Source: a virus. From it: a stretch of DNA of 64,000 bases. Position 1 is the stretch's first letter. Each line of letters begins with the position of its first letter. A program made the position numbers and the translations under genes. The stretch lies in the IMG/VR virus record IMGVR_UViG_3300031485_000046, one strand, 5' to 3'. Below, piece by piece: positions 3,099 to 63,045 of the stretch. The notes under the pieces are model-generated. The model was given only the letters and a program-made list of their open reading frames with translations, was not told where the DNA came from and searched no databases.

Positions 3099-3607
3099 GG
3101 CAATACATCTCTCGCTTTCCATGCACAATAATACAACATACTTGTACAAGATGCCGCAGGAATATAATACCATGTAACAGATTTTTTGAATCGTTTTTCC
3201 TTTTCAATCTTGATAAAGTTAATGGATTGTAGAAATTTAATAACCTCCCGTATCTTTTTAAGCGGGAATAGCGTTCTCTCTTGCATTTTTCGTAAAGGGT
3301 ACGTAAACCAGATATTTCCTTGTTTATCTTCATGGTACTTATCTATCTCATCTAATTTTCGTTCTGCTGGATATAAATAGTAATGATCATACCCGGAATT
3401 TCCGTATGTGTCTTCCGCTATTTGTTTGGCTTCTATCATTAGTGAAATGATTACTGCCGTTTCAGTACCCATTATTTTAAGGATATTTGAGTCAATCATA
3501 ATCCTATCCATCCCACATAGATTCCATGCTACTTTTTCACGAATATCGGAAGTTATTTCCTTTCCATATACTTTCATAAATGTTTCCATATTCGGTAAAC
3601 TTTCCAT
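3086..3607 (-). CDS. hypothetical protein
   Basis: 173 aa ORF with strong SD (GGAAGGAGG) before ATG at 3607; first gene of minus-strand replication cluster. Confidence 0.6.
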   Translation of the reverse strand: MESLPNMETFMKVYGKEITSDIREKVAWNLCGMDRIMIDSNILKIMGTETAVIISLMIEAKQIAEDTYGNSGYDHYYLYPAERKLDEIDKYHEDKQGNIWFTYPLRKMQERTLFPLKKIREVIKFLQSINFIKIEKEKRFKKSVTWYYIPAASCTSMLYYCAWKARDVLPWKK

Positions 3608-3647
3608 TTATGTACCTCCTTCCGAAAAACCTTCAGGCCCTCCATTG

Positions 3648-3688
3648 TTAAAAAAGAGCGGAGGTTTTCAAAATTTGGCAACCTCCGC
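3648..3688 (-). terminator. putative rho-independent terminator (minus strand)
   Basis: 9-bp stem GCGGAGGTT/AACCTCCGC (3658..3666 / 3680..3688) with 13-nt loop, followed on minus strand by T-run; loop is long so moderate support. Confidence 0.4.
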
Positions 3689-4081
3689 CCTTCCCACGCC
3701 CCTAATTCGTGTTTTTGTTTTTTGGAACAATGATGGTGAAACTTTTGCTTTATTTACTCGAAACCTTTGTTGCAAGAATGACTGTTTCTGCTTGTCAGGA
3801 AATGAAAATCGTCATCATTTTCACATCCAAACTAGGATGATTACAATTATAAAATAGAATGCTGTTGTGCCGCACCTAGATCGGCCTAAGATTTTTGGTG
3901 AGTACATTCTATTTTATTTTTGTAAAATCCAAGCAGGCGTGTTCACTCTTTTGGAGCAAAACTACAGCCTCCTTTCATGTGTTTCAAGATATGGAGCTAA
4001 TCTCGCTTCGTGCGAGAATGCATATTATCATACAATAGAAATTTGTCCTAGTAAAGTTGTCGAAATATTGATAGCAACGGC

Positions 4082-4150
4082 AGAGAAACGTATAGCGCCT
4101 TGCGTTGCATACGCATGGCGGAGAAACGGTCGGCGGAGAAACGGAGAAAC
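4082..4150. repeat. iteron cluster GGCGGAGAAAC (2 full copies at 4117..4127 and 4132..4142 plus partial GAGAAAC copies)
   Basis: Direct 11-mer repeats spaced 15 nt in the 3608..4319 intergenic region beside replication genes; same 11-mer recurs at 16411..16449. Confidence 0.6.
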
Positions 4151-4319
4151 TCCGCTCCTAAATCTCTGCATGGATCTCCGGAGTGCCTTCTGGATTCCTG
4201 AAAACGGTAATACTGCTTACCTCAGAAGTTATACCTGTTCCAGAATCGTATACCTTTAAGCGGTGCTGGAACAAAGGTATTGCCAAATTGAGAAGCCTTA
4301 CCGCGTCTTCTAATTCCAT

Positions 4320-4574
4320 TTACTGTTCCACCTTTGTCATAATTGTGGTACCGCCCATTTCTACAAACAGGATTGTATATTTACCTTCTGTTTTTTTGGC
4401 ATACTTGTCGAAAAAGGCCATAAACGTAACAAATTCCATACATATTGTCCGTACTACCGTAGGAACGCCTTCTGGAGTAGTTGCCCATTCCACATTAATG
4501 CTGATAATACCGTCTGGTAACTGGATTCTATCTGTTTTAGTTATCAATTTATAAATCTTAATCCTTTCGTCCAT
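4320..4574 (-). CDS. hypothetical protein
   Basis: 84 aa ORF, no recognisable motifs. Confidence 0.45.
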   Translation of the reverse strand: MDERIKIYKLITKTDRIQLPDGIISINVEWATTPEGVPTVVRTICMEFVTFMAFFDKYAKKTEGKYTILFVEMGGTTIMTKVEQ

Positions 4575-4859
4575 TTTTATACCTTCTCCTTTCTATTATG
4601 AAAAATAGACTGATAACCACACCTATTACTTCCACGGATTTCATGTTTCCTTGGTTGGTACGCTATAGCCTTTACTTTCAAGCTATAGTTTCATGTCTTT
4701 TTTGCTACCTAGTGATCCTGAGCGATTCTAGAGCCAAGGTTATACTTCTCGTTTACATCTATCCGATATATAATACACAGGTAATTCTTTTCCTTCAGAT
4801 GATGGAAAGAAAAAAAGTAGAATATATTAATCAGCTATATTTTTCACAAACGAATATGG

Positions 4860-4889
4860 GTAAAAAGAAGGCAAGGTACTGCCTTCTTC
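4860..4889 (-). terminator. rho-independent terminator after primase gene
   Basis: 8-bp stem AGAAGGCA/TGCCTTCT (4866..4873 / 4880..4887), 6-nt loop, T-run on minus strand, immediately 3' of primase stop (4890..4892). Confidence 0.55.
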
Positions 4890-12347: not shown

Positions 12348-12914
12348 ATGGCATATCGAAAATCAGGGAGACCTTTAGCAGTAGCAGAACCGTGGAATGA
12401 ATCAATCCCAGAAAGGGCGTATGATCTTTGCCTTCTAGGATTGCGTGATGCCGATTTAGCCACGGCATTCGGAGTTTCTATATATACCATTGATAAATGG
12501 AAACAGACTCATCCAGAGTTTAGAGAAGCACTATCCAGAGGTAAAGAACAAGCTGACGCTAAAGTGGCAGACGCACTTTACCATAAGGCAGTAGGCTATG
12601 CCCATAAAGCTGTGGACATCAGAATAGTTGACGGCGAGGTAGTGAAAATACCATACACTAAAATCTATCCACCAGATACTACTGCCTGCATATTCTGGTT
12701 GAAGAATAGGCAAAGACAGTACTGGACGGATACCAAGCAAAATGTTCATACTGGTACAGTGGGTGTGGAACATACTATGAGACGTCAACTTGACCTTTCT
12801 GATTTCTCCAAAGAAGAACTTGCCCTAGCAGAAAAACTAGCCTCTAGGATGCTTCAGGAGGGTACTCAGGATGCAGAGTTTACAGAAGAGGGGGAGAATG
12901 ACGGGGATGAGTAA
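12348..12914 (+). CDS. terS: terminase small subunit
   Basis: 188 aa directly upstream of and overlapping large terminase; HTH-like N-terminus 'LATAFGVSIYTIDKW' and 'IFWLKNRQRQYW' segment typical of small terminases. Confidence 0.65.
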   Translation: MAYRKSGRPLAVAEPWNESIPERAYDLCLLGLRDADLATAFGVSIYTIDKWKQTHPEFREALSRGKEQADAKVADALYHKAVGYAHKAVDIRIVDGEVVKIPYTKIYPPDTTACIFWLKNRQRQYWTDTKQNVHTGTVGVEHTMRRQLDLSDFSKEELALAEKLASRMLQEGTQDAEFTEEGENDGDE

Positions 12915-14466
12915 ATATGAACGTAAGGACGCCTTAAAACGCCAAAGAGAAAACATCATCCCAAAATCAGATAGGTTCCAAGCATTACTTTTGAACCCAT
13001 TGCAGATAAAAGCAGAAAAATGCCGTAGGTCCCTATTTGAATTTATGAAAGAATTCTGGCCAGAAGTATCCACAAGTGACCCTACATGGAATTGGCATCT
13101 AGAATACCTAGCTAACGAACTGGAAAGGATGATGTATAGAGTAGCAAACAGACAACCAAAAGAATACGACCTCATAATAAACATAAGCCCCGGTACCACA
13201 AAGTCTACCCTATGTTCCATAATGCTGAATGCATGGGTGTGGGCTAAATGGCCTTGGCTCCGATTCATCAACGCATCCTATTCTGGAGCCCTATCTCTGG
13301 AACATTCAGAATTGTGTCGTGACCTTATACGGTCAGAACGATACAAAAGGTTATTCCCGTATTTGGAAATAAAGCAAGACAAGGATACCAAAACTAACTT
13401 TAAAATTTTATATGATGAAGAGCGTCTGGATTCCATAACAGGCGAAGCATCTACACTAAAAAAGAGTGGTGGTAACAGATACTCCACCTCCGTAGGCGGC
13501 ACCTTGACTGGATTCCATGCTGATGTACTGTTAGTAGACGATCCATTGGATCCGCAAAGAGCTGTATCCGACGTGGAAGTCCTTAAAGCCAACACATGGA
13601 TAGATCAGACACTATCTACCAGAAAGGTAGATAAAGCGGTAACACCAACCATAATCATAATGCAAAGGCTCCATCAGAATGACCCTACGGGTTATCTGCT
13701 ATCCAAGAAGAATAAAAAGATAAAGCATATCTGCCTACCAGGTGAAATACGGAATTACAGGAAAAATTTGAAACCTAAAGCCCTAGCCAAGTATTATAAG
13801 GATGATCTGTTCGACCCTATAAGAATGCCATGGAAAGTCCTTGACGACCTAAGAGTAGACCTTGGTGAATTCGGGTATGCTTCCCAGATCGGCCAATCCG
13901 CAGTATCAGACAAGGGCAACTTATTCAAGGTAGAACACTTTCAAATCATCCATAGTATGGTACCAGACCCAGACATAGTAAGATCCATACGATACTGGGA
14001 CAAAGCCGGTACAGCTGGAGCTGGAGCATACACGGTGGGGGTACGAATGCTTGCATTGAATAATGGAAAATTCCTTATCACGGATGTTAAAAGAGGGCGG
14101 TGGTCCACAGAACAACGGGAAGCCATCATCAGACAGACTGCAGAAGCCGACGGTACAGACACAATAATCTGGCATGAACAAGAACCAGGTTCAGGCGGAA
14201 AAGAATCCGCAGAAGGCACTATAAGAAACCTAGCTGGATACACCACGTATGCAGATAGGGTAACTAGAAACAAGGAAATGAGAGCGGATCCATATTCAGT
14301 CCAAGTAAATAATGGTAACGTACTGTTACTATATGCTCCGTGGAACCAAGACTTCATAGAAGAGCACAGATACTTCCCAAATTCAACATATAAGGATCAG
14401 GTAGACGCAGCCTCAGGAGCGTTCTCTAAGGCAGTACGGAAAAAGATAGCCGGTGCGATAGGATAA
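12907..14466 (+). CDS. terL: terminase large subunit
   Basis: ~520 aa; ATPase P-loop-like 'NISPGTTKST', acidic 'LLVDDPLD', C-terminal nuclease-like region; SD AGGGGGAG before ATG 12907 (track ORF starts 12871). Confidence 0.8.
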   Translation: MSKYERKDALKRQRENIIPKSDRFQALLLNPLQIKAEKCRRSLFEFMKEFWPEVSTSDPTWNWHLEYLANELERMMYRVANRQPKEYDLIINISPGTTKSTLCSIMLNAWVWAKWPWLRFINASYSGALSLEHSELCRDLIRSERYKRLFPYLEIKQDKDTKTNFKILYDEERLDSITGEASTLKKSGGNRYSTSVGGTLTGFHADVLLVDDPLDPQRAVSDVEVLKANTWIDQTLSTRKVDKAVTPTIIIMQRLHQNDPTGYLLSKKNKKIKHICLPGEIRNYRKNLKPKALAKYYKDDLFDPIRMPWKVLDDLRVDLGEFGYASQIGQSAVSDKGNLFKVEHFQIIHSMVPDPDIVRSIRYWDKAGTAGAGAYTVGVRMLALNNGKFLITDVKRGRWSTEQREAIIRQTAEADGTDTIIWHEQEPGSGGKESAEGTIRNLAGYTTYADRVTRNKEMRADPYSVQVNNGNVLLLYAPWNQDFIEEHRYFPNSTYKDQVDAASGAFSKAVRKKIAGAIG

Positions 14467-14522
14467 ACATATAAAGGTAACCAAACAGATAACCCGTTTA
14501 GCCGTAGGCTATAGGGATAAAT

Positions 14523-14568
14523 AATGATACAGATAGATATGGATTCACCTATCTGTATCATTTTTTTA
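14523..14568 (+). terminator. rho-independent terminator downstream of terL
   Basis: Perfect 11-14 bp stem GATACAGATAG/CTATCTGTATC (14526..14536 / 14549..14559), 12-nt loop, TTTTTTT run 14561..14567. Confidence 0.75.
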
Positions 14569-15078
14569 TGGTAAAATACTCATACCGTAAGGTAAGCTAT
14601 GATATAGTAAAAATTGGGTAGTTTGGTAGTTATAGAGGTAGTCAGATAGAATAGGAAAAAAACTATCCATAAAAATAACATAGATAGGTAGACTAATATG
14701 GTATAATCTATAGAAACCTATATATCAATACAATCCATACTTTTACTATCCAAATAAGCTAATAATCCAATATAATCCAGATAATCCTAAACAGGTACAT
14801 ATAGTCAATTATAATAAGATACAGAAGAGGCAATCCCAAATCATACTAAGATGGTATACCAATATATCTGATACACCATATAACCTATCTCATGTAACCA
14901 TACGAATATGCATATGGATAAACAGTAAGAACGACATAATACAAATATACACCAATTCAATCAAGCTAATAGGAACATACGCAATAAGCTAATATCCGAT
15001 AAGCCTAAACAGGTACATAGTCAATATCAATATCTAGTCAATAGTAAACTAACATGCGAGCCTCCCTAAGGTAGGTCC

Positions 15079-15104
15079 CATAAATTGGTACCATAAATTG
15101 GTAC
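15079..15104. repeat. tandem 13-bp repeat CATAAATTGGTAC x2 (contains GGTACC palindrome)
   Basis: Two adjacent identical 13-mers read directly. Confidence 0.6.
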
Positions 15105-15439
15105 CATATCCTGGTTTACCAGCATGTGGTAACCTTACCTCCATCCTTACCATCACCTATACCACCATTCATCTGGATCTAATCTGCCTATACCCATATT
15201 TAATCTATGGTATTTAATAAATGGACACCATATTTCATAAATGGATAGCCAAAACCATACAAGCCATATCCTATTCCGTATTCCAATCCAATATATAGAT
15301 ACCTATACCTCCACTTCACCATGTACTGGGAAACCCAGTAATTGGTATAAAAAAATGGGACCTAAGTGTGGTAACCTAGATTTATCTATGTATGATCGTT
15401 TATATAGTGAAACCGAGATTTATACCTATTATTTTGTCC

Positions 15440-15900
15440 TCCACTATACCAATACGGTGGTATGCTGGATTGTAATCAGGAAATTCAAATACGGAGTAGA
15501 CCTCGATGTTTTACTATGTATATATAGAACGTATCTTTATAACAGTACCTACCAACTATCCACTACGGTGGTGTGTTGGATTGTACTTATAAATATGTGG
15601 AAAATAGAAAATGGGAGGTATTTCGATGTTTTACTATGTAGAACCGACGGTCTGTTTTTGTCAGGAATCTTCCAACTATCCACTACGGTGGTATATTGGG
15701 AGATACTTACCGAAACGTGTATGATATGAAATGGGAGGTATTTCGATGTTTTACTATGCATATATAGAGATATTGATTGGTTCCCATTTACCCTATATCT
15801 TACCCAGTATCCACTACGGTGGTATGTTGGGTAGTATTAATCCGTAGTATGGGTAGGTACTGTCTAGATTGTTTATCTATATATAGAGAATGAATAAGGT
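15440..15900. repeat. ~110-130 bp tandem repeat array, 4 units, each with blocks 'CGATGTTTTACTATG' and 'TATCCACTACGGTGGT'
   Basis: Block A at 15504, 15624, 15744; block B at 15451, 15560, 15680, 15811; track ORFs 15241..15729(+) and 15549..15761(-) merely translate the repeats. Confidence 0.75.
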
Positions 15901-16410
15901 GTGTCCATTCCCAAAATACCTCAGGCCCTCCATTATCTAGAATTTTCCCCAATTATAAAAATTTGTCAACCTCTGGCAGCTAAATGGAGTATAAGTATCC
16001 TACGGATACATGTATAAAAATGAAATCTTGGACACGTATCCAACGGATTATTTTATAAAAATGGGATTGGATTATTTTTATTTATACAGGTTCAATTTGA
16101 GAAAATGCACCTGTTTGAGTTTTCGATGGGTAATTGGTATAACAATAGTTGGATTATATAAAAACGGTATGGGATAATACCAGACCCGTTTTGAAGGCAT
16201 AAATTGCATAAATCAGTTCCGTTTATTTTTTTATTTCCTATGGATGGTACCGAATATTTCGAGGAGAAAAGGAATCCATAAAAATCATACGAGGTTTTTC
16301 ATGCTACCTAATCCAAAATACGTGGCGAATTTTCGGCTCCGTAATCGTTTTTCTAGAGGTGAGCGGTGAATTCATACCGGTAGAAAATGAGCGCCTTCTA
16401 GCGCACCGCT

Positions 16411-16449
16411 GGCGGAGAAACTCATTGGCGGAGAAACTGGCGGAGAAAA
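16411..16449. repeat. iteron cluster GGCGGAGAAA(C) x3
   Basis: Copies at 16411..16421, 16427..16437, 16439..16449; same 11-mer as at 4117..4142. Confidence 0.65.
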
Positions 16450-16457
16450 TGGATGGA

Positions 16458-16548
16458 TTTTTCTGTTTTTCTGTTTTTCTGATTGTTGTACATCGTTTCT
16501 ACATTCTACATTCTACATTCTACATTCTACATTCTACATTCTGCATTT
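16458..16548. repeat. microsatellite-like tandem repeats: TTTTTCTG x3 then TACATTC x6-7
   Basis: 8-mer repeats about 16458..16482; heptamer array 16500..16541 with a degenerate seventh unit to 16548. Confidence 0.7.
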
Positions 16549-17060
16549 CAGAAGAATGCATGTGGTACTTTATAAGATGCATGTATGCAATGTCATATGC
16601 ATCCTTAATTGTCTCCTGATTACTATACAATTATACACTATTCCTATTCCTGTTTCAATCGTAACAGATATTTTACTATTATATAATAATCTATAGTATT
16701 GTGTCATATTGTAGAATATTCTTATATTCATGAATATCAGACAAGCATAATGCAGAATGCATATTATACAATGCATTATTCAGCTATATTTTTCACAAGC
16801 ATTTTTTAGTAGTACAATGCATAATGCAGAATGCATCATGCATTATTCAATGAAACATTTCACAAGTGTTCATACAGTGCATACAATACATTCTGCATCA
16901 TGCATCATGCATTATTCAGCTATATTTTTCACAAGCATTTTTTAGTAGTACAATACATTCTGCAATATGCATTGTATAGCATGTATTATTCAATGAAACA
17001 TTTCACAAGTGTTACTGTATCCGAAGAGTATACAATGCATTTTTCAATGAAATATTTCAC
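16540..17060. repeat. ATGCAT-dense region with ~126-140 bp direct repeats (units contain 'TCAGCTATATTTTTCACAAGC' and 'TTCAATGAAACATTTCACAAG')
   Basis: About a dozen ATGCAT hexamers in ~500 bp; 19-mer TCAGCTATATTTTTCACAA at 16780 and 16906 (also 4831); track ORFs here are repeat translations. Confidence 0.65.
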
Positions 17061-17191
17061 AAGCGATACTGTGATCGAATTGTATCTGAATGACTATACA
17101 ATTCACTATTATTTTATAAAACTCTATAGTATTGCAGAATACAGTAGAATTCAGTAGAATTATATTAAGTGTATAGTCTTTTCATGCATAG

Positions 17192-17219
17192 TTGACATTC
17201 TATCGTAGAGTGCTATACT
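17192..17219 (+). promoter_or_regulatory. sigma70-like promoter TTGACA-N16-TATACT
   Basis: TTGACA 17192..17197, TATACT 17214..17219, ~120 nt upstream of small gene start 17337. Confidence 0.55.
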
Positions 17220-17336
17220 GTACTCGTAGCAAGCGAGCGAGCAAGTTCTTTGACAACTGAAGAAGCAAGCTCATAACAGAGTAACACTTCTTCAGAACAT
17301 ACGCGCACAACGTTGCGCAGAAAGAGAGTGTGTAGC

Positions 17337-17675
17337 ATGACAACGAGCAGCAAGAAGAACGTAAACAGTAAGAAAGCTGAAATAGTCGAACAGAAAGCAG
17401 TTGAAGTAAAGAAAGAAGAAGTAAGAGAAGCAAAGAAGATTAGCAATACTCAGAAGTGTGCTGATATGATCATGCAACTTGCGAAAGACGCTAAGTATAC
17501 TCGCAGTGAAATTTGTAATGCTGTTTCAGATGCACTAACAGCATTAAGCATAGTCACAGTAAAGACTATGCTTTCAGACTTGCAGAACAGCAAGTATGCA
17601 AGACGTTATAGCACTCATACTATCGCAGTAAACAAAGAAACAAAGATTGTAACAGTAGCAAGTGAGATAAAATGA
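17337..17675 (+). CDS. hypothetical small protein
   Basis: ATG 17337 with SD AAAGAGAG 8 nt upstream (track ORF starts at TTG 17313); 112 aa, Lys/Glu-rich N-terminus. Confidence 0.5.
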   Translation: MTTSSKKNVNSKKAEIVEQKAVEVKKEEVREAKKISNTQKCADMIMQLAKDAKYTRSEICNAVSDALTALSIVTVKTMLSDLQNSKYARRYSTHTIAVNKETKIVTVASEIK

Positions 17676-17884
17676 AGTATCAGCATGTTGAACGTTCGCA
17701 AGCTCTCGCAGTAAGTGACGTTGAAACTTTGCAGAATATTGCAAAAAGACGTCTGATCGATTTGAAACAGCTTGCAAGAGAAGCAGACTCTTTACTTGTC
17801 TTTTCAGTAATAAGAAATACATGTATTCAAATCGATCGAAGCATCGATGATGCACTTGAAAACGCAAGAAAATTACTGAAGTAG
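17672..17884 (+). CDS. hypothetical small protein
   Basis: 70 aa; ATGA start/stop overlap with preceding gene; followed by strong terminator. Confidence 0.5.
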   Translation: MKYQHVERSQALAVSDVETLQNIAKRRLIDLKQLAREADSLLVFSVIRNTCIQIDRSIDDALENARKLLK

Positions 17885-17889
17885 TACAA

Positions 17890-17940
17890 AAAAAGATAGT
17901 CAAGTATCTACAATTCGATACTTGACTATCTTTTTATCTC
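17890..17940. terminator. strong (bidirectional-capable) rho-independent terminator
   Basis: Perfect 15-bp stem AGATAGTCAAGTATC/GATACTTGACTATCT (17894..17908 / 17917..17931), 8-nt loop, flanking A-run and T-run. Confidence 0.8.
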
Positions 17941-17960
17941 ATTTGAAAGAGAGTGATACT

Positions 17961-18284
17961 ATGTTAGATAATCAGTATGAATTACATCAAAAGATACAAA
18001 AAATAGAACACAAGCATATCAGATTACATGCAAGCAATTGTATGTACAAATTGATGAATATTCAATTGTTACTTGAAGAACAGATTAATCTACTCATTTC
18101 TGATATTGTAGCAAATGATGCTTCTGTTAGTGAAATATTGCTAACAGAACGTCAAAGTACATTTGATAATGAACTTTTTGCGATAACGACAAAAGAAGAT
18201 AGAAAAGCAATAGCAATACTGCATAATACTATAATCGATAGTATGAATGCAGTAAGAAAGACAATCATCTATACAGACGAATAA
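17961..18284 (+). CDS. hypothetical small protein
   Basis: ATG 17961 with SD GAAAGAGAG 7 nt upstream; track start (TTG 17922) lies inside the terminator stem so was moved. Confidence 0.5.
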   Translation: MLDNQYELHQKIQKIEHKHIRLHASNCMYKLMNIQLLLEEQINLLISDIVANDASVSEILLTERQSTFDNELFAITTKEDRKAIAILHNTIIDSMNAVRKTIIYTDE

Positions 18285-18323
18285 AATTACACAATAGAGC
18301 ATAATTGATAGCAATTGAATAGA

Positions 18324-18361
18324 AAAGAGTAGTCAATACTAGACTACTCTTTTCTTTTTTA
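18324..18361 (+). terminator. rho-independent terminator
   Basis: 11-bp stem AAAGAGTAGTC/GACTACTCTTT (18324..18334 / 18342..18352), 7-nt loop, T-run to 18360. Confidence 0.7.
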
Positions 18362-18745
18362 TTCATGCATACAATGCATGATGCATCCTGCACTATGCAT
18401 AGTATAAGCGTTCATAGTAGCATTTGATAACATAACACTACACTATTTATTACAATTAGACAATATACTACAATATGATAGTGTAGTGTGTATTGTCTAT
18501 TCTATACACTACAATATAGACAAGTATACACTACAATATAGACAAGTATAGAATAGAGTATAATAATCTATAGTATGCTACACTATATAGCAATATAATA
18601 TAATAATATATAATTGTATAGTAAAGCAGATACAATTCAATACAATGACTGCGCTAGTATACAATGCATGATGCATGATGCATCGTACACAATGCATAAT
18701 GTAAAATCGATTTTACACGTTGCAGAATGCATGCTGGCTCCTGGC

Positions 18746-18902
18746 CCCCTCTAAAATTGTGACAAATTTTTCTGGATATTAAAATGGGTAATCCATTATT
18801 TTCTAAAGCATATTCATTATTTATTCTACGTATCTTTCACACACCCCTCGTAAAATTGCTACTGATTTTTCCCAATACTAAAGTGGGTAATCCATTATTT
18901 TC
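18746..18902. repeat. two ~58-bp direct repeats sharing 'AAAATTG..TTTTTC..TAAA.TGGGTAATCCATTATTTTC'
   Basis: Copies at 18746..18803 and 18844..18902; inverted partial copy 'TAATGGATTA..ACCCA' near 18961; partial copy near 19110. Confidence 0.6.
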
Positions 18903-19426
18903 GATATATCTATTCTGTATGACTGTATAGATAGTATAAGATGCAGTATCCAATTTTAACTAATGGATTAATATACCCAATTTACTCATACTATACGTAT
19001 CTTCATGGATCCGTTTTCTTTCGTCTTTATTTTTACCATACCCCGTCATTCTGTATGAATTTATCCAAAAATAACCGCATAAATATTTTGTAAAAATTTA
19101 TATGGGAGTTAAAATGGGTTGATTAGATCAGTAGAGAGGTTAGATCACACTAGGGAGTTAGATACGATGCATCCTAGCCCGGATCCTGATAGGCTAGGAT
19201 GCATATAGAAACTATGTTTGTCGTAATATATCTTGAAAACGCATCAGATTCGTTTCATACTGTGCGATTTCCTTGCTTATGGAAGCTGTTCGTTCTGTTT
19301 CAGACGTTGTTTCTATCGTCTAGAGTGAAAAAGATCGAATACCGTGCAAGGATTTAACGTGTCATGCCATCCCATTCGGTTGTTCCCTCCGTCCTTGCGA
19401 CTTTCCTATAAGGGATGGAAACCGGG

Positions 19427-19645
19427 TCATTTCGCCCGCTCCTCCCAGAACCGTCTGCGTCGCTCCTCCCTGTGACGCTTGATATTCTCCCGCACCCTCT
19501 GCGTGCGGGGCGGGAACGTGTTCAGATGGGTCAGCACCGGCTCCACGCTGACAGCTCTGCCGAATTCCCTCTCCCATTCCTGGGCGTAGATTTCCTCGTA
19601 GGATAACATTTCGCGAAATCTGAGCCCCGTGCATCGTCCGCTCAT
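19427..19645 (-). CDS. small basic hypothetical protein inside a GC-rich islet
   Basis: 72 aa ORF starting 1 nt after kdsB stop; local GC visibly about 60% versus ~40% surroundings; no recognised motif. Confidence 0.3.
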   Translation of the reverse strand: MSGRCTGLRFREMLSYEEIYAQEWEREFGRAVSVEPVLTHLNTFPPRTQRVRENIKRHREERRRRFWEERAK

Positions 19646-20436
19646 TCCTTACCCTCCTTTTTTTCTATAATTTCATCATATTCATTTTCTTTACCAGAGT
19701 TTATTATACAACGAACAGCTTCCAAATCAGCAGGAGTATCTACACTAGGTCCAACTTTTTTTGCTCTTGTTATTTCTACTTTAATGGAAAAATCATGTTC
19801 TAATATTCTGAGCTGTTCCAGTGATTCTGCTGATGCCAAAGGTGTTTGTGGCATTTTGGCATAATAATGGATTAAGAAACGTCTAGTAAATCCATAAATT
19901 CCTATATGTCGGTAGATGGGATATACTTCTTCCGGATCTCTAATAAAAGGGATAGGAGACCTACTGAAATATAAAGCATCTCCATTTATTCTGAATGCCA
20001 CTTTTACTACCGATGGATCATTGATAGTAGCGGTATCTGTAATAAGGGCACATATCGTAGCAGATTCCGTAGCCCTATTTTCAGTTTTATAAAATAATGA
20101 TATTACTTCATCAATCATACAAGGATTAAGTAATGGTTCATCCCCTTGTATGTTTATCACTATATTATTATTAGAGAATTTTTTAGCTATTTCCACAACT
20201 CTACTAGTTCCGTTTGTATGATTTGGAGAAGTTAGCATAGCTTCTCCACCGAAATTATTTACAGCCTGCACGATTCTTTCATCGTCAGTAGCTACAATCA
20301 ACCGGTCAAGTAAAGTAGATCGTGAGGCTCGCTCGTACACTCTCTGGATCATTGTTTTTCCGCATATATCAGCTAGAGGTTTACCGGGGAGCCTTGTAGA
20401 ATTGTATCTAGCGGGGATAACTCCTAAAGTTATCAT
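19642..20436 (-). CDS. kdsB: 3-deoxy-manno-octulosonate cytidylyltransferase (CMP-Kdo synthetase)
   Basis: 264 aa; near-collinear with KdsB hallmark segments 'VIPARYNSTRLPGKPL', 'VATDDERI', 'QGDEPL', 'ALYFSRSPIP', 'HIGIYGF', 'EQLRILE', 'VDTPADLE' (compared from memory with E. coli KdsB). Confidence 0.85.
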   Translation of the reverse strand: MITLGVIPARYNSTRLPGKPLADICGKTMIQRVYERASRSTLLDRLIVATDDERIVQAVNNFGGEAMLTSPNHTNGTSRVVEIAKKFSNNNIVINIQGDEPLLNPCMIDEVISLFYKTENRATESATICALITDTATINDPSVVKVAFRINGDALYFSRSPIPFIRDPEEVYPIYRHIGIYGFTRRFLIHYYAKMPQTPLASAESLEQLRILEHDFSIKVEITRAKKVGPSVDTPADLEAVRCIINSGKENEYDEIIEKKEGKE

Positions 20437-20455
20437 TATTTATCACTTCCATTCA

Positions 20456-20602
20456 TTATTTAAGATTATGTGGTACTTTTTTGTCAAGTTCCAGTAATTT
20501 TGCATTAACTTTTTCTAGTTCAGCCATGAGAAATATTACCATATCGCATCTATCAGGTAGTATTTTTTCTTTACCTGTTACTTTCCTCCATAATTCTACC
20601 AT
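20456..20602 (-). CDS. small protein (48 aa), paralog of C-terminal domain of 21367..21669 product
   Basis: Own translation: MVELWRKVTGKEKILPDRCDMVIFLMAELEK... aligns with '...AVRLWRKTTGKDFIMPDRCDLVVYLMEELDK' (about 20/38 identical); below the ORF-track size cutoff. Confidence 0.4.
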   Translation of the reverse strand: MVELWRKVTGKEKILPDRCDMVIFLMAELEKVNAKLLELDKKVPHNLK

Positions 20603-20658
20603 CGGGATTTGTCCAAAGTTTCTTGTTATTGTCGTATTTCTATCCAGTTCTATAATAC

Positions 20659-21195
20659 TTATTCAGAAAGGTTGTCATGTTCACTTGCATTTTCCTCCTT
20701 TGTTGGAAGTGGTACCGGTAACTTTTCTTTTATGCAATTCATAAGGATTGTATATTTCCTTTCTTGCATCATTTCTAATGCTTTTACCATCGTTTTTCCC
20801 CAACCATTACATGAATATTTTCCTAAGTCTTTAATGTAGGCAACGTATCCTTTCATTCCGTTTAGTTCTGTAGTCATTGGCTGAATTGTAATGGAATACG
20901 GAATTTTCATCAATTCATCTATAGTGGGATCCTCGTTTCTGTTTATATTTTGTGAAATTACCGACATATTTATCATGTCAAACCTATTAGACATACGGTC
21001 AGGTACGTTAATCGTAGCACCACATCCGGAGCATCGCAAAATTAAGGAATCTAATTCTGCAATCATTTTATATGGATTTGGATACGCATACTGTATTTGG
21101 TCAAGAGTGTCAATTGGTTTAGCGCAAAGTGGGCAAATTATTTGTCTACCGTCACAAAACAATACATAACGCCCTTGTCCTATAGAAAGACTCAT
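20659..21195 (-). CDS. hypothetical protein with N-terminal zinc ribbon and HicB-like C-terminal region
   Basis: 178 aa; CxxC..CxxC; C-terminal 'YSITIQP..GYVAYIKDLGKYSCNGWGKTMVKALEMM' resembles HicB/UPF0150 pattern (weak). Confidence 0.5.
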   Translation of the reverse strand: MSLSIGQGRYVLFCDGRQIICPLCAKPIDTLDQIQYAYPNPYKMIAELDSLILRCSGCGATINVPDRMSNRFDMINMSVISQNINRNEDPTIDELMKIPYSITIQPMTTELNGMKGYVAYIKDLGKYSCNGWGKTMVKALEMMQERKYTILMNCIKEKLPVPLPTKEENASEHDNLSE

Positions 21196-21389
21196 TCTTC
21201 CATCTCCTTTTTAAGCAAAGCCTTCTGCATTTTCCCCAAAGCCGCAAACAACGTATCTTTACAACCCGTATAGATATACAGACTGCCCACAACTTTACCA
21301 TCAACGAGTACAGTATATGTAGGAGATTTGATTGGCCCATGGTTCTCTTCGAGTATTATCACTATTTCATTCCCCCTTTTCCATTTCAC
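21192..21389 (-). CDS. hypothetical small protein
   Basis: 65 aa ORF overlapping neighbours by 4 and 23 nt. Confidence 0.4.
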   Translation of the reverse strand: MKWKRGNEIVIILEENHGPIKSPTYTVLVDGKVVGSLYIYTGCKDTLFAALGKMQKALLKKEMEE

Positions 21390-21669
21390 GTATTCTACGT
21401 TTAGCTTTATCCAATTCCTCCATCAGATATACTACTAAATCACATCTGTCTGGCATGATAAAATCTTTCCCTGTTGTTTTTCGCCATAGTCTTACCGCTC
21501 TCATATCCGCTTTCCATACAATATCGAACACATTCTGGAGTTGTTTAGCGTCTTCTTTCAAGGAATCCACGAGCATTTTCATATTTTCTAACCGTTTTTT
21601 CAAGGAATCTCTCTCTTTAACCAGCTTTTCTAGTTCTTGCATGAGCAATTTTCGATCACTTTCCATCAA
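21367..21669 (-). CDS. hypothetical coiled-coil protein with C-terminal 'PDRCD' domain
   Basis: 100 aa; first gene of minus-strand operon divergent from portal gene. Confidence 0.5.
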   Translation of the reverse strand: MMESDRKLLMQELEKLVKERDSLKKRLENMKMLVDSLKEDAKQLQNVFDIVWKADMRAVRLWRKTTGKDFIMPDRCDLVVYLMEELDKAKRRIREMEKGE

Positions 21670-21796
21670 TGTCCCTCCTTATAAATTTGCGCTTCACTAT
21701 ATTATACAACACCATTTTTGCTCATTTATACATAGTTTTCCATGAAAATTGTGTTTAATTTGCAATTATAGTATACTGTATAGTTTTCTGTCATAG

Positions 21797-21825
21797 TAGA
21801 CAAAATTGAATTATGGGTATATAAT
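21797..21825 (+). promoter_or_regulatory. sigma70-like promoter TAGACA-N17-TATAAT for the late operon
   Basis: TAGACA 21797..21802, 17-nt spacer, TATAAT 21820..21825; SD AAGGAGG and portal start at 21848. Confidence 0.55.
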
Positions 21826-21847
21826 GTATTTATAATACGGTAAGGAG

Positions 21848-23308
21848 GTGAGTAGGATAGAAAATATCAGTACCAACGAATTGGTTGGGCAATTACAGCG
21901 GATTACAGCTATGGCTGAACTGGCTACAAGAATGAATGTCGGTGCTAGGATGGGAATGCAGTATGACGGCCAACGGGATATTGCAAAAGCTCTTGGCTAC
22001 CCACAAACAATACGGTACAACGACCTCCTTGCCGCATATACCCGTCAGGATATGGCGAAAGCCATTATAGATCGTCCCGTAAAATCTACTTGGCGTGGAG
22101 ATTTCAAGCTAGTAGAAACCCACAGGGACGATGATACGCAACTCGAAACAGCTTGGTCTACATTATATAGGAAATTGCACATAAAACAGAATTTCCTTAG
22201 AGTGGACAAGCTAGCCTGCCTCGGTAATTATGCTCTTCTTTTTCTTGGTTTCAATGATGTGAATAGTCCTGAAGAATTGATACGACCTGTTTCTGCTGGA
22301 GTAGGACGTGAATTGCTGTATTTGAAACCGTTTGGACAGAATGTCATTCAGATCAAAGATTGGGAAGATGATACAAGTTCACCTGAATATGGAATGCCGC
22401 TTATTTATGAAGTAGACATTGGAGAAGCATCATCTAAAAAGAGCCGAACTGTCAGCATCCATCGGTCAAGGATTGTTCATGTAGCTTTCGACCTACTTGA
22501 ATCAGAGTATGAAGGTGCTCCTGTTCTAGAAGTTGTTTTTAACCGTCTGAAAGACCTTGAAAAGCTAGTAGGCGGTTCTGCTGAAATGTTCTGGAGAGGT
22601 GCTAGACCTGGATATGCAGGTAAAATTGATCCAGAATACATGCTGACGAAAGATACGGAAGAGGGATTGAAACGCCAGCTGGATGAGTTTGAAAATAATC
22701 TGCGAAGGATACTCATGCTTGAAGGTGTTACACTCGATAGCCTTGAGCCGCAGGTAGTTGACCCGTCTATGCACGTTGATATCCAGATTCAGATGATTTC
22801 TGCTATTACTGGTATTCCTAAGAGAATTCTTACAGGAAGTGAGCGAGGTGATCTTGCTTCTACGCAAGACAAAGATAACTGGCTCGACCTTATCCAAATG
22901 CGACGGGAAGAATATGCTGAACCTAAGATCATTCGAGCAACCATTGACCGTTGTATTGAATTTGGTGTGCTTCCTAAGCCTGAAAAGGAAACATACAAAA
23001 TAAAATGGCAGGATCTTTATGCACCGTCTGTTAAGGATCAAGCGGACATTGGGCAGATACGTTCGCTTGCCTTGAAACATTATACGTACAATCCTGAAGC
23101 AGAGCAGTTTATCCCGTTTGAAGCGTTCCTTACATTCTTCCTTGGTTTGGAAGATGAGGAAGTGGAGTATATCAAAAAGCTCCAGCAAACAAGTGAAAGG
23201 ATATTGACGCCTGAATTAAAGGAACTTGCGAATGAAAATGCACCAACACGGAGAGAACGCCCTCCGCGGAGAGGAATACCTCGAGAGGATGAAGAACTAG
23301 AAAAGTGA
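21848..23308 (+). CDS. portal protein (DUF1073-like)
   Basis: 486 aa first gene of late operon, followed by head-morphogenesis and capsid genes; acidic C-terminus; family assignment from remembered patterns and gene order. Confidence 0.65.
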   Translation: MSRIENISTNELVGQLQRITAMAELATRMNVGARMGMQYDGQRDIAKALGYPQTIRYNDLLAAYTRQDMAKAIIDRPVKSTWRGDFKLVETHRDDDTQLETAWSTLYRKLHIKQNFLRVDKLACLGNYALLFLGFNDVNSPEELIRPVSAGVGRELLYLKPFGQNVIQIKDWEDDTSSPEYGMPLIYEVDIGEASSKKSRTVSIHRSRIVHVAFDLLESEYEGAPVLEVVFNRLKDLEKLVGGSAEMFWRGARPGYAGKIDPEYMLTKDTEEGLKRQLDEFENNLRRILMLEGVTLDSLEPQVVDPSMHVDIQIQMISAITGIPKRILTGSERGDLASTQDKDNWLDLIQMRREEYAEPKIIRATIDRCIEFGVLPKPEKETYKIKWQDLYAPSVKDQADIGQIRSLALKHYTYNPEAEQFIPFEAFLTFFLGLEDEEVEYIKKLQQTSERILTPELKELANENAPTRRERPPRRGIPREDEELEK

Positions 23309-47191: not shown

Positions 47192-47842
47192 TTATCTAAT
47201 CTGGAATGTTTTTGTAAATCCGTTTCTACTTTTGCACCATCCTACTAGCCAATAACAAAATGGTGTATCACTCAATGCGATCAATATTTTAACAACCCAC
47301 TGGCTCATTATCATGGAAAATAAAACAGGCATGGGCATAATTCCATAAAATGCAATAACGATAAAGATTACCGTATCGAAAAACTGGCTAGATATGGTAC
47401 CTACGTTATTTCTAAGCCACAAATGTTTTCCATGTGTTAAATCCTTTAGCTTATGAAATACCCATACATCATTCAGCTGGCTGACAAGATAAGCAGTCAA
47501 TGAAGCTCCAGTAATCCTACCAACTCTTCCAAAGAGTTCTGTAAAGAATTCCTGCCTCTCATAGAAAGGAGCGGCGGGAAGCATAACAGCGATAAACCCT
47601 AGTGACATAGCAAGCAGACTACAAAAGAATCCTGCCCATACAACCCTTGTAACTACTTTCTTACCCCATACCTCTCCAATCACATCAGTCATAAGAAAAG
47701 TAATTGGGTATGCGATAACACCTGCTGGTAGAATGAAATCCCCAAACATAAACAGTTTTGTTGCCAATACGTTTGCAGTTACCAACGATGTCACAAATAC
47801 TGCAACCAGTGTGATGAATGTTCTTGGAATCTTGAGTTCCAT
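47192..47842 (-). CDS. yhhQ: queuosine-precursor transporter, YhhQ/DUF165 family
   Basis: 216 aa polytopic membrane protein; segments 'MTDVIGEVWG', 'ASLTAYLVSQLNDVWVFHKLKD', 'SQFFDTVIFIVIAF' align with E. coli YhhQ (from memory). Confidence 0.7.
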   Translation of the reverse strand: MELKIPRTFITLVAVFVTSLVTANVLATKLFMFGDFILPAGVIAYPITFLMTDVIGEVWGKKVVTRVVWAGFFCSLLAMSLGFIAVMLPAAPFYERQEFFTELFGRVGRITGASLTAYLVSQLNDVWVFHKLKDLTHGKHLWLRNNVGTISSQFFDTVIFIVIAFYGIMPMPVLFSMIMSQWVVKILIALSDTPFCYWLVGWCKSRNGFTKTFQIR

Positions 47843-61930: not shown

Positions 61931-62374
61931 TCAGTTACCTGTTCCGTCGTACTCGGCAATCACCGAAATATCAGTACCACCTCTGCGATTGAAATTAGCC
62001 TCTATTCGCATGTGGTACGGTTTGCAAGCGTTCGACAGATCGTCCAGTATTTTGTTTGTAACAGACTCCATAAACGCTCCGTGCTGACGATATGCTCCCA
62101 TGTATATCTTGAGTGCTTTCGTTTCCAAACAAAAATCCTTTGGAAAGTATCGAATCGTGATAGTGCCAAAATCAGGATTTCCTGTACGCGGACACAGACT
62201 GGAAAATTCCGTGAATACGAACTCCGTGGCGTATTGCCTGTCTTTGCACGGATTATCAAATACTTCAAGAAGAGCTGGATCTGGATTATTGTACCTGTCG
62301 TACGGTACGACTGTTCCGAGGTTTTTCAGATGGTCTACATTCACTTTTCTATCCATTGTTTGCACCCTCCTCAT
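61931..62374 (-). CDS. queF: NADPH-dependent 7-cyano-7-deazaguanine reductase (unimodular QueF)
   Basis: ~145 aa; catalytic-Cys region 'FSSLCPRTGNPDFGTITIRY' and QueF motif-like 'ETKALKIY'. Confidence 0.8.
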   Translation of the reverse strand: MRRVQTMDRKVNVDHLKNLGTVVPYDRYNNPDPALLEVFDNPCKDRQYATEFVFTEFSSLCPRTGNPDFGTITIRYFPKDFCLETKALKIYMGAYRQHGAFMESVTNKILDDLSNACKPYHMRIEANFNRRGGTDISVIAEYDGTGN

Positions 62375-63044: not shown

Positions 63045-63045
63045 C

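What the first reader, a model, noticed from the sequence alone, without database searches (positions are those of the whole stretch)
15908..15976. Dispersed homologous segments linking the replication intergenic region and the large non-coding region
3620..3690 and 15908..15976 share an identical 14-mer TCAGGCCCTCCATT (3633..3646; 15921..15934) and similar flanks (AAATTTG.CAACCTC). Separately, the 19-mer TCAGCTATATTTTTCACAA occurs at 4831, 16780 and 16906. Together with the shared iterons, the two regions appear to carry copies of the same regulatory modules, suggesting duplication or a common regulator acting at both sites.
Basis: seen in the sequence. Interest (0 to 1): 0.45.

Follow-up and report, generated by a model that had tools for sequence, protein, structure and literature searches.

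The report
Paired replication-control units in a phage
The two short matching stretches are real: they are the conserved ends of two related ~550-base control units of an uncultivated phage, one gating its replication genes and one in a large non-coding region, and the two units change together across relatives, so the same phage factors very probably act at both.

Summary
The window is a nearly complete ~64.6-kb lytic-type phage genome.

Exact words shared by 3608-4889 and 14467-17336 are about ten times more frequent than in shuffles. All are in direct orientation.

The flagged segment is a bipartite, strand-specific element read on the minus strand:
- Box 1: GGAGGTnGGCAAATTTT.
- Box 2: GGAGGGCCTGA..TTTT.GG, starting exactly 43 nt after Box 1.

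Each copy lies about 385-480 nt downstream of a cluster of iterons. This gives two paralogous units, 4150->3620 and 16455->15908, whose interiors are not alignable.

Copy A forms the 5' arm and loop of the intrinsic terminator that ends a covariation-supported 375-nt structured leader RNA. Its Box 2 sits in the 5'-UTR just before the ribosome-binding site of the replication operon.

Copy B has no terminator arm, no RNA structure and no gene downstream.

Both copies are conserved in about 30 metagenomic contigs. One lineage changed its iterons from GTTTCTCC to TTTAAGGC in both units.

Best reading: two co-evolving control/origin-like units bound by common phage factors, comparable to SPP1 oriL/oriR. 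The role of the boxes themselves is inferred, not shown.

The parts
15904..15978 (-). Copy B of the bipartite element (the finding). Box 1 is AGAGGTTGACAAATTTT at 15958-15974. Box 2 has its core AATGGAGGGCCTGA at 15921-15934 and extends to 15908. The GGAGG-to-GGAGG register is 43 nt. There is no hairpin and no gene downstream.
   Evidence: Conserved in 12 or more contigs. No RNA structure for the family consensus (z +0.85).
3616..3695 (-). Copy A. Box 1 (GGAGGTTGCCAAATTTT, 3670-3686) is the 5' arm and loop of an intrinsic terminator. The 5' arm is 3680-3688, the 3' arm 3658-3666, the U-tract 3650-3655, and the extended stem reaches 3695. Box 2 (3620-3646) lies between the terminator and the ribosome-binding site.
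   Evidence: z -3.35. Helix 12 is 100% paired in 9 relatives. The block is invariant in L010, L011 and L012, although the gene downstream differs.
3605..3619 (-). Ribosome-binding site GGAAGGAGG and the ATG (3607) of the first gene of the replication operon. The operon runs ORF 3086-3607, O-like initiator 1683-3173, DnaC-like loader 1012-1662.
3647..4023 (-). Structured leader RNA of unit 1, running from the conserved promoter to the copy-A terminator.
   Evidence: MFE -110 kcal/mol, z -5.5. 14 of 88 pairs show compensatory changes, against 7.3 +/- 1.9 in shuffles (0/500) and 0-6 in slid controls. No Rfam family matches.
4027..4055 (-). Conserved promoter of the leader (TTTACT-17-TATGAT). The shared 14-mer AGAATGCATATTAT (4015-4028) overlaps its -10 and start region.
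   Evidence: Also conserved in L066 and L069.
4116..4150 (-). Iteron cluster of unit 1 (GTTTCTCCG three times on the minus strand), directly after the stop codon of a conserved 53-aa ORF (4158-4319).
16410..16455 (-). Iteron cluster of unit 2 (three copies), 441-475 nt upstream of copy-B Box 1 on the minus strand.
4818..4849 (-). Region-1 copy of the 19-mer/32-mer module (CTTGTGAAAAATATAGCTGA on the minus strand). It lies between the terminator after the primase gene and the next promoter.
16751..17067 (-). Five copies of the same module in region 2. The exact 19-mers are at 16780-16798 and 16916-16934. A promoter-like TGTATAAT plus the shared 14-mer lies at 16754-16775.
   Evidence: The module is also conserved in the L070/L071 lineage.
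15988..16016 (-). Sigma-70-like site TATACA-17-TATACT, ending 13 nt upstream of copy-B Box 1. The perfect palindrome GTATCCGTAGGATAC (15995-16009) lies in its spacer.
   Evidence: The score is 9/12 in the window lineage, the L055 variant and L051, but only 7/12 in L070, L079 and L084, so support is moderate.

Best explanation
The two segments are the two copies of a strand-specific bipartite cis-element. Box 1 is GGAGGTnGGCAAATTTT. Box 2 is (G/A)GGGCCTGA..TTTT.GG, in a fixed 43-nt register with Box 1. The element forms the distal end of two paralogous ~550-bp control units of the phage. Each unit begins about 385-480 bp upstream, on the minus strand, with a cluster of iterons.

Shown:
- The units are homologous only at their two ends.
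- Both are conserved across lineages.
- Both change together: iteron specificity and some box variants differ between lineages but match within a genome.
- Copy A is physically part of the intrinsic terminator that ends a structured 375-nt leader RNA. Its Box 2 lies in the 5'-UTR about 20 nt before the ribosome-binding site of the replication operon (initiator, loader, helicase).
- Copy B lacks the terminator's 3' arm, has no RNA structure, and is followed by non-coding repeats.

Inferred:
- The same phage-encoded sequence-specific factors act at both units. The O-like initiator is the most likely iteron binder.
- Unit 1 is the autoregulated gate of the replication operon, through iteron-controlled promoter activity and terminator read-through.
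- Unit 2 is a second initiator-binding, origin-like site. It lies in an accessory segment inserted between the terminase and portal genes, as oriR does in Bacillus phage SPP1.
- The boxes are the unit's second recognition module. They are asymmetric, strictly spaced, and not explained by a promoter or an RNA fold. At copy A, occupying Box 1 as RNA would prevent terminator formation, or as DNA would block RNA polymerase, and so set read-through into the replication genes.

My probability that the units share common factors and are replication-control or origin-like units is about 0.7. My probability that the boxes act as a factor-binding gate of terminator read-through at copy A is about 0.35.
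For: - Enrichment and collinearity of shared modules, all direct.
- Exactly two copies in the window.
- About 9 type-A and 12 type-B contigs from independent JGI, ENA, Logan and NCBI assemblies, with the boxes nearly invariant while the flanks vary.
- The 43-nt register is kept in every A and B copy, although the 24-nt spacer is unrelated between A and B.
- The iteron-to-Box 1 distance is 433-480 nt in all copies of the GTTTCTCC lineages and 384-462 nt in L084.
- In L084 all 5 exact TTTAAGGC words in 19 kb lie in the two units, and no GTTTCTC iteron remains there.
- Box 1 carries TTGGG in both A and B of L079/L080/L081.
- Box 2 is ACCTGGGGGCCTGAG in both A and B of L070.
- The terminator has a G-U-compatible change and is 100% paired.
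- The leader RNA shows covariation.
- The iteron word is confined to the two clusters: 5 of 7 occurrences, with 2.0 expected.
- The gene order initiator, DnaC-like loader, DnaB helicase is present.
- The segment 14467-21848 is absent where the portal gene directly follows terL in more distant relatives, and it carries a cytidylyltransferase moron.
- In SPP1, oriL and oriR lie about 13 kb apart, with oriR and morons interrupting the late gene order (PMC6316719).
Against: - No factor has been identified. The small proteins next to unit 1 have no family match.
- The initiator has no detectable relative among sequenced phages, SPP1 included.
- The boxes lie about 440 bp from the iterons, much further than an unwinding element normally lies from initiator sites.
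- Concerted change of the boxes is imperfect. Window copy A has TTGCC and copy B TTGAC. L070 Box 1 differs at 5 positions between A and B. L084 copy B has a degenerate Box 2.
- L051 has a copy B with no iterons within 700 nt.
- There are no transcript or replication data.
Confidence: 0.5

Rival explanations
1. RNA-level leader element of the nut/put or RAT type. Box 1 and Box 2 would be read only as RNA in two minus-strand transcripts. They would recruit an antitermination or RNA-binding factor, with copy B co-regulated or acting as a decoy that titrates the factor. The iterons would be a separate matter. This overlaps with part of the best explanation.
For: Copy A is certainly in RNA, as terminator arm and 5'-UTR. 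The boxes are asymmetric and not palindromic. The terminator loop (..CAAATTTT..) is conserved although loops normally drift. A sigma-70-like site lies 5-18 nt upstream of Box 1 in several B lineages and in no A copy. In L083 GGAGGT is kept although the stem has moved to GCCG/CGGC.
Against: Copy B has no predicted structure (z +0.85). Its upstream promoter is weak (7/12) in L070, L079 and L084. No N-, Q-, LoaP- or LicT-like protein was found. This reading does not explain the conserved distance to the iterons.
Confidence: 0.2
2. Trans-antisense control. A plus-strand RNA reading across copy B, for example late read-through from terL, would be complementary to Box 1 and Box 2 of the replication-operon leader. 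It would alter termination or translation there.
For: Between the window's two copies, Box 2 shares 14 identical bases and Box 1 shares 7 + 8. Other members of the lineage share up to 18-19 identical bases in Box 1. Only the segments that would pair are conserved, not the spacer. Some lineage-specific variants are shared by A and B.
Against: No conserved plus-strand promoter was found upstream of copy B. A strong bidirectional terminator follows terL (14519-14566). In L051 copy B starts 6 nt after a strong plus-strand terminator. Box 1 complementarity is poor in L070, and Box 2 complementarity is poor in L084. Pairing does not require the strict 43-nt register.
Confidence: 0.1
3. Duplicated sigma-70 promoters. 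The -10-like AACAAT/GATAAT immediately before Box 2, with TTGAAA/TTTATA 16 nt upstream, would be a promoter, and Box 2 the conserved start of the transcript.
For: Matches of 9/12 on the minus strand at both sites in the window (3671->3644 and 15959->15932). L051 has GACAAT at the same position.
Against: The -10 is not kept in the diverged lineages: TAATAC/ATACC in L069 and L070 (both A and B), and CAATAA in L066. The -35 position of copy A falls in the variable terminator loop. Only two copies exist in a 64-kb genome.
Confidence: 0.07
4. No function of its own. The similarity would be a relic of an old duplication, kept alike by gene conversion, or a conserved recombination joint at which modules are exchanged.
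For: The sequence just downstream of Box 2 is a mosaic joint in both copies. At least three different first genes follow copy A, and an optional 182-nt insert follows copy B. The phage encodes RecA-like and SbcCD-like recombination proteins.
Against: The boxes survive where the initiator protein is only 40-50% identical and everything around them is unalignable. The spacer between the boxes was not homogenised, which patchy gene conversion would have to explain. Recombination between direct repeats 12 kb apart would delete essential genes.
Confidence: 0.08

Closest known systems
Bacillus phage SPP1 oriL / oriR (two initiator-binding origins; PMC6316719)
   Same: There are two dispersed sites about 12-13 kb apart on the circular map that carry the same direct repeats. 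One lies at the initiator gene, which is followed by helicase-loader and DnaB-type helicase genes. The other lies in a segment with moron genes that interrupts the conserved order of late genes.
   Different: The initiator here has no detectable sequence relative among sequenced phages. Unit 1 lies upstream of the initiator operon, not inside the gene. Each unit also carries the bipartite Box 1/Box 2 element about 440 bp from the iterons. Unit 1 contains a structured leader RNA and a terminator. Nothing has been tested experimentally.
Lambda nutL/nutR and HK022 putL/putR (paired leader elements for processive antitermination)
   Same: There are exactly two copies per genome of a 50-75-nt element, in one orientation relative to transcription. 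The element is bipartite with conserved spacing. One copy sits at a terminator in front of the replication genes.
   Different: Copy B has no boxB-like or put-like stem-loops. Both copies are on the same DNA strand. No N-like protein has been identified. Box 1 of copy A is itself the terminator arm rather than lying upstream of the terminator.
Attenuators in plasmid rep leaders (pT181, pIP501/pAMbeta1)
   Same: An intrinsic terminator lies between the promoter and the ribosome-binding site of a replication initiator operon, preceded by a structured leader.
   Different: No countertranscript promoter was found. The leader is much longer, at 375 nt. A second, terminator-less copy of the 5' arm exists elsewhere in the genome.
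Iteron control loci of P1 and iteron plasmids (incC/incA; autoregulation and handcuffing)
   Same: The same iterons occur at two loci, and one cluster lies just upstream of the promoter that leads into the rep genes.
   Different: There are only three iterons per cluster, and the clusters are 12 kb apart. The phage is of a lytic type, with no partition or integrase genes found among the ORFs scanned.

Membership tests
Intrinsic (Rho-independent) terminator / attenuator | G+C-rich hairpin immediately followed by a U-tract on the transcribed strand | tested here: met
   Copy A has a 9-bp core stem (14-16 pairs when extended) followed by U6. z is -3.35. It is 100% paired in 9 relatives, with G-U/A-U one-sided changes. 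Copy B has no complementary 3' arm and no structure (z +0.85), so this applies to copy A only.
Intrinsic (Rho-independent) terminator / attenuator | An alternative (antiterminator) structure or a bound factor that decides read-through | tested here: inconclusive
   The 3' arm CCUCC can also pair with the GGAGG of Box 2 in the window, L066, L069 and L070 lineages (reading of the sequences). There is no statistical support and no factor is known.
Sigma-70-type promoter at the flagged site | -35 and -10 hexamers conserved across relatives | tested here: not met
   The -10-like AAyAAT/GATAAT before Box 2 is replaced by ATACC/CTACC/CAATAA in L066, L069 and L070.
SPP1-type pair of origins (oriL/oriR) | The same direct repeats at two dispersed sites | tested here: met
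   Iterons are present at 4116-4150 and 16410-16455. 5 of the 7 GGAGAAAC words in the window lie there. Iteron specificity switched in both units of L084.
SPP1-type pair of origins (oriL/oriR) | An A+T-rich unwinding element next to the repeats | tested here: inconclusive
   Unit 2 has TTTTTCTG three times and TTCTACA eight times directly beside the iterons. Unit 1 has a coding sequence on one side and a promoter on the other. No stability calculation was done.
SPP1-type pair of origins (oriL/oriR) | Initiator homologous to gp38 that binds the repeats | tested here: not met
   tblastn of the initiator against 50,697 phage records found no match. It matches only PHROG 'replication initiation O-like' and 'DnaD-like' families. 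Binding cannot be tested with these tools.
Lambda nut / HK022 put leader elements | A conserved RNA stem-loop (boxB, or the two put stems) in both copies | tested here: not met
   Copy B has no significant fold. The unit-2 interior has z -0.6. No compensatory pairs were found among 11 B sequences.
Any described RNA family (Rfam 15) | A match at or above the gathering score | tested here: not met
   There were no gathering-score matches in the window. Only chance-level hits appeared in the two regions: L20 leader at 21.9 bits against 58.7, and mir-2319.
Antisense-RNA-controlled rep attenuation (pT181/pIP501 type) | A countertranscript promoter on the opposite strand of the leader | tested here: inconclusive
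   The consensus scan listed no plus-strand promoter-like site inside 3600-3700 or just upstream of 15908. The scan is crude.

The most novel reading that the evidence does not exclude
The phage times its replication genes with a new kind of RNA device. A 375-nt structured leader ends in a terminator, and the terminator's 5' arm and the adjacent 5'-UTR box are duplicated at the head of a non-coding transcript elsewhere in the genome. That second RNA would act as a molecular mimic or decoy that competes for the factor, or for the terminator's 3' arm, that decides read-through. This would couple the accessory non-coding region to replication control.
Probability: 0.12. Interest if true: 0.75.

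Novelty: new variant of a known kind. Interest (0 to 1): 0.5.

Why it matters
This is an uncultivated phage lineage from anaerobic-digester and sediment metagenomes, with no isolated relative; the closest match to its terminase among sequenced phages is 50% identical over about half the protein and 38% over most of it.

The result gives that lineage a concrete map of cis-acting replication-control DNA:
- two co-evolving initiator-binding units;
- a strictly spaced bipartite element with no known counterpart;
- a covariation-supported structured leader RNA that is absent from Rfam and gates the replication operon.

If confirmed, it would extend the SPP1 two-origin layout to an unrelated initiator family. 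It would also provide a natural case of iteron specificity switching in parallel at two loci. The boxes and the leader RNA are small and well defined, so they can be tested directly in reporter constructs.

Tried and rejected
- Near-identity DNA searches of region 2 against the phage and plasmid collections found nothing.
- tblastn of the initiator against phages found nothing.
- Rfam at gathering and E-value thresholds gave nothing meaningful.
- The long-duplication idea was rejected. The interiors between shared modules are at chance similarity, and profiles hit only the unit ends.
- The promoter reading of the flagged site was rejected because the -10 is not conserved in diverged lineages.
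- A shared RNA structure for A and B was rejected.
- No third or complementary copy exists, which a P4 CI-RNA or P1 c4-type scheme would need.
- The 162-aa ORF at 15241-15729 and other ORFs in region 2 were rejected as coding. They have odd composition, no family match, and many stops in every frame.
- The tandem MFYY small ORFs in the 120-nt repeats read the conserved palindrome in different frames. They are therefore probably not peptides.
- Terminase relatives at 62% identity or less (L077, L078) belong to differently organised phages and were uninformative.
- Pfam/PHROG scans of the neighbouring ORFs scanned found no regulator.
- The resemblance of copy-A Box 1 (GGCGGAGGTTG) to the RfaH ops element, and of GCTCTTTTTTAACAA to rrn boxA, comes from my memory only. 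Neither is shared by copy B, so I did not pursue them.

Full report
CONTEXT. The window is almost a whole phage genome. In three relatives, window positions 1 and 64000 lie about 610 nt apart and in order, so the genome is about 64.6 kb and circularly permuted.

Minus-strand genes run from about 12200 down through position 1 and on from 64000 to 44683. They encode an SNF2 helicase, a sigma factor, a primase, an O-like/DnaD-like initiator (1683-3173) and a DnaC-like loader. A DnaB-type helicase follows the loader in relatives; the corresponding window ORF was not scanned. Further along are a family-A DNA polymerase with an intein, a clamp and clamp loader, RecA, SbcCD-like proteins, ThyX, dUTPase and QueC/QueF.

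Plus-strand genes are terS and terL (12348-14466), then 2.9 kb with no credible ORF (14467-17336). After that come small genes and a cytidylyltransferase, then the portal gene at 21848 and the structural genes.

In more distant terminase relatives the portal gene follows terL directly (L004, L005). So 14467-21848 is an accessory insert in the late region. No integrase or partition gene was found among the ORFs scanned. The host is unknown. Strong GGAGG ribosome-binding sites suggest a Firmicute-like host, but that is inference only.

THE OBSERVATION. It is correct, except that the third 19-mer starts at 16916. The two flagged sites align without gaps, with 49 of 75 bases identical; the best value in 100 shuffles was 42. 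Across the two non-coding regions there are 11 direct exact matches of at least 11 nt, against 1.3 expected, and 4 of at least 14 nt, against 0.04 expected. Inverted matches are at chance.

The shared items are:
- the flagged segment;
- the iterons;
- the 19-mer module;

Sequence between these items is not similar.

ANATOMY OF THE SEGMENT. Read on the minus strand, the direction of the replication genes, copy A is:

GGGCGGAGGTTGCCAAATTTTGAAAACCTCCGCTCTTTTTTAACAATGGAGGGCCTGAAGGTTTTTCGGAAGGAGGTACATAAATG

This is a G+C-rich hairpin followed by U6, that is, an intrinsic terminator. It is followed by 35 nt of leader, the ribosome-binding site, and the ATG of ORF 3086-3607.

Copy B is:

CCAGAGGTTGACAAATTTTTATAATTGGGGAAAATTCTAGATAATGGAGGGCCTGAGGTATTTTGGGAA

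The two copies share two blocks. Box 1 is GGAGGTnGGCAAATTTT. Box 2 is AATGGAGGGCCTGA..TTTT.GGAA. The 24 nt between the boxes are unrelated. In copy A they form the terminator's 3' arm and U-tract. In copy B they are A+T-rich, with no complementarity to Box 1. The family-B consensus sequence has no significant fold (z +0.85). A profile of the element finds only these two copies in the window, and no inverted copy of either box was found.

CONSERVATION ELSEWHERE. Scans of the genome and metagenome collections for the Box 2 pattern returned chance hits plus two clean families.
- Type A, with the hairpin and ribosome-binding site: L013-L016, L035, L037, L050, L052, L056, and later L065.
- Type B: L017, L031, L034, L039, L040, L049, L054, L055, L057, L059, L062, L076, plus a divergent copy in L051.

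Within type A, the block from hairpin to ribosome-binding site is invariant in the closest relatives (L010-L012) even where the surrounding leader is only 75% identical and the gene downstream differs.

Diverged lineages, with the initiator 40-51% identical, still carry the element. Type A is present in L066, L069, L070, L083 and L084. Type B is present in L070, L071-L075 and L084.

The distance from the GGAGG of Box 1 to the corresponding position of Box 2 is 43 nt in every case I counted.

TWO UNITS, NOT TWO WORDS. On the minus strand each copy lies 433-480 nt downstream of a cluster of about three GTTTCTC(C) iterons. This holds for every A copy and every B copy in the GTTTCTCC lineages. In L084 the distances are 384-462 nt.

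HMM profiles of the 588-nt A units hit B units at two places only, and collinearly: the iteron end (E about 1e-7) and the box end (E about 1e-7 to 1e-8). The reverse search gives the same result.

So the genome holds two paralogous units:
- unit 1: window 4150->3620;
- unit 2: window 16455->15908.

Their ends are homologous and their roughly 370-nt interiors are not.

The interiors differ in kind. Unit 1 contains a conserved promoter (TTTACT-17-TATGAT, 4055->4027) and a strongly structured minus-strand RNA. Its MFE is -110 kcal/mol and z is -5.5. In nine relatives, 14 of 88 predicted pairs show compensatory double changes, against 7.3 +/- 1.9 in shuffles (0/500) and 0-6 when partners are slid. 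Its last helix is the copy-A terminator. The unit-2 interior is not structured (z -0.6) and shows no compensatory pairs.

THE UNITS CHANGE TOGETHER. Contigs that hold both units allow within-genome comparison.
- L084 (NCBI assembly GCA_040364275.1; helicase 67% identical): the iterons are TTTAAGGC instead of GTTTCTCC, in both units. All five exact copies in 19 kb lie in the two units, on one strand, and no GTTTCTC iteron is left there.
- L079/L080/L081: Box 1 reads GGAGGTTGGGAAATTTT in both A and B. Most other genomes have ..TTGGC...
- L070: Box 2 reads ACCTGGGGGCCTGAG in both A and B. The window lineage has AATGGAGGGCCTGA.

The agreement is not perfect. The window has TTGCC in A and TTGAC in B. 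L070 Box 1 differs at five positions between A and B. L084 copy B has a degenerate Box 2, TGGTAGCCTATGGTGTTTT. L051 has a copy B with no iterons nearby.

The iteron switch is the strongest single piece of evidence that one DNA-binding protein reads both units. The initiator is the natural candidate, because the lineage with new iterons also has the most diverged initiator. That step is inference.

WHAT THE BOXES ARE NOT.
- They are not a conserved promoter. The -10-like AAyAAT/GATAAT before Box 2 in the window lineage becomes ATACC/CTACC/CAATAA in L066, L069 and L070.
- They are not a shared RNA fold.
- They are not a known RNA family.
- They are not one half of a sense/antisense trio within the genome, because there is no complementary copy.

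A sigma-70-like site ends 5-18 nt upstream of Box 1 in several B lineages. It scores 9/12 in the window lineage, in the L055 deletion variant (which recreates a -10), and in L051. It is weak (7/12) in L070, L079 and L084, and absent from A copies. So copy B may head a minus-strand transcript, but this is only moderately supported.

MOST LIKELY MECHANISM.

Shown:
- two co-evolving units;
- copy A is a terminator and 5'-UTR in front of the replication operon;
- copy B is a terminator-less copy of the same two boxes.

Inferred:
- The initiator binds the iterons of both units.
- Unit 1 is the control region of the replication operon. The iterons lie about 70-110 nt upstream of the leader promoter, and read-through of the terminator decides expression.
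- Unit 2 is a second initiator-binding, origin-like site, flanked by A+T-rich short tandem repeats, inside an accessory insert of the late region.

This layout parallels SPP1. There, gp38 binds direct repeats at oriL (in gene 38, followed by loader and helicase genes) and at oriR. OriR lies about 13 kb away, in a segment with morons that interrupts the late gene order (PMC6316719).

The boxes are asymmetric and strictly spaced, and they are conserved where neither a fold nor a promoter explains them. I therefore read them as a second recognition module for a phage factor. At copy A, a factor bound to Box 1 would stop the hairpin from forming, or a DNA-bound factor would block RNA polymerase, and this would set read-through.

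I put about 0.7 on 'common factors at two replication-control or origin-like units'. I put about 0.35 on the specific gate role of the boxes.

RIVALS.
- A purely RNA-level nut/put/RAT-like element, with copy B as co-regulated transcript or decoy: 0.2.
- A plus-strand antisense RNA from copy B acting on the leader: 0.1. This is weakened by terminators upstream of copy B and by poor complementarity in L070 and L084.
- Duplicated promoters: 0.07.
- A relic or recombination joint without function: 0.08. This is contradicted by survival of the boxes through complete turnover of their surroundings.

THE 19-MER MODULE. On the minus strand it reads CTTGTGAAAAATATAGCTGA. In region 1 it lies between the terminator after the primase gene and the next promoter. 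That terminator shows compensatory changes in L012. It is present there in the window, L012, L056 and L065, but absent in L010 and L070.

In region 2 there are five copies in the window. Two or three copies were found in region 2 of the diverged L070/L071 lineage. It is a separate shared site, probably an operator. I did not resolve it further.

NOVELTY AND VERDICT. The kind of arrangement is known: the same cis sites at two loci, origin pairs, paired leader elements. The element itself, its fixed 43-nt register, its pairing with iterons at a conserved distance, and the structured leader RNA have no described counterpart that I could find. I rate it a new variant of a known kind, of moderate interest. 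Function is unproven.

Noticed in passing
window 3647-4023 (-): A 375-nt structured RNA runs from a conserved promoter to the copy-A terminator. z is -5.5, and 14 pairs show compensatory changes in 9 relatives. Rfam has no match. It may be a new leader or ncRNA class that gates a phage replication operon.
   Followed up: partly
window 16497-16550: The heptamer TTCTACA is repeated eight times in tandem, next to TTTTTCTG three times (16455-16480) and the iterons. The L070/L071 lineage has GCAGAAT/GTAGAAT heptads at the same place. From memory, this resembles the heptad operators bound by omega-type ribbon-helix-helix repressors; I did not test that.
   Followed up: no
window 15439-15841: There are four repeats of about 120 nt. 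Each has a 28-bp palindrome (CCAAC-ATA-CCAC-CGTA-GTGG-ATA-GTTGG). The three downstream units (from about 15490) also carry the box AAATGGGAGGTATTTCGATGTTTTACTATG or a variant, which looks like a ribosome-binding site plus ATG on the plus strand. Relatives have three copies, and some have an extra 182-nt unit inserted exactly at 15908, the edge of copy B. The L070 lineage lacks these repeats and has TATGGTTAT repeats instead.
   Followed up: partly
L084 1461-1500 and 12090-12175: In this diverged relative the iterons are TTTAAGGC rather than GTTTCTCC, in both units. This is a natural switch of iteron specificity at two loci at once.
   Followed up: partly
window 1 and 64000: The window ends are about 610 nt apart in relatives L010-L012. 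The window is therefore a nearly complete, circularly permuted genome of about 64.6 kb.
   Followed up: yes
window 14467-21848: This whole segment lies between terL and the portal gene and is missing from more distant terminase relatives, where the portal gene follows terL directly. It holds the 2.9-kb non-coding region, small unknown genes and a cytidylyltransferase (19642-20436). Many assemblies break inside it; for example, Logan contig SRR34859213_1977 ends near window 15640.
   Followed up: partly
window 15995-16009: The perfect 15-bp palindrome GTATCCTACGGATAC lies between the -35-like and -10-like hexamers just upstream of copy-B Box 1. It is conserved in all window-lineage relatives and may be an operator.
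   Followed up: no
window 3086-3610 versus L011/L012/L035: A mosaic joint lies immediately after the ribosome-binding site that follows copy A. The window and L010 have a 173-aa ORF with a weak winged-helix match plus a 496-aa initiator. L011, L012 and L065 start a 440-aa initiator directly. L035 has another gene.
   Followed up: partly
window 4158-4319 (-): A 53-aa ORF (MELEDAVRLLNLAIPLFQHRLKVY...), too short for the ORF list, is conserved from the window lineage to L066 and L084. Its stop codon always lies directly before the unit-1 iterons. It has no family match.
   Followed up: partly
window 56263-58107, 61931-63188, 47192-47842: The family-A DNA polymerase carries an intein. QueC-like and QueF-like genes and a Vut_1 (YhhQ-type) transporter gene are present, which suggests 7-deazaguanine modification of the phage DNA.
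   Followed up: no
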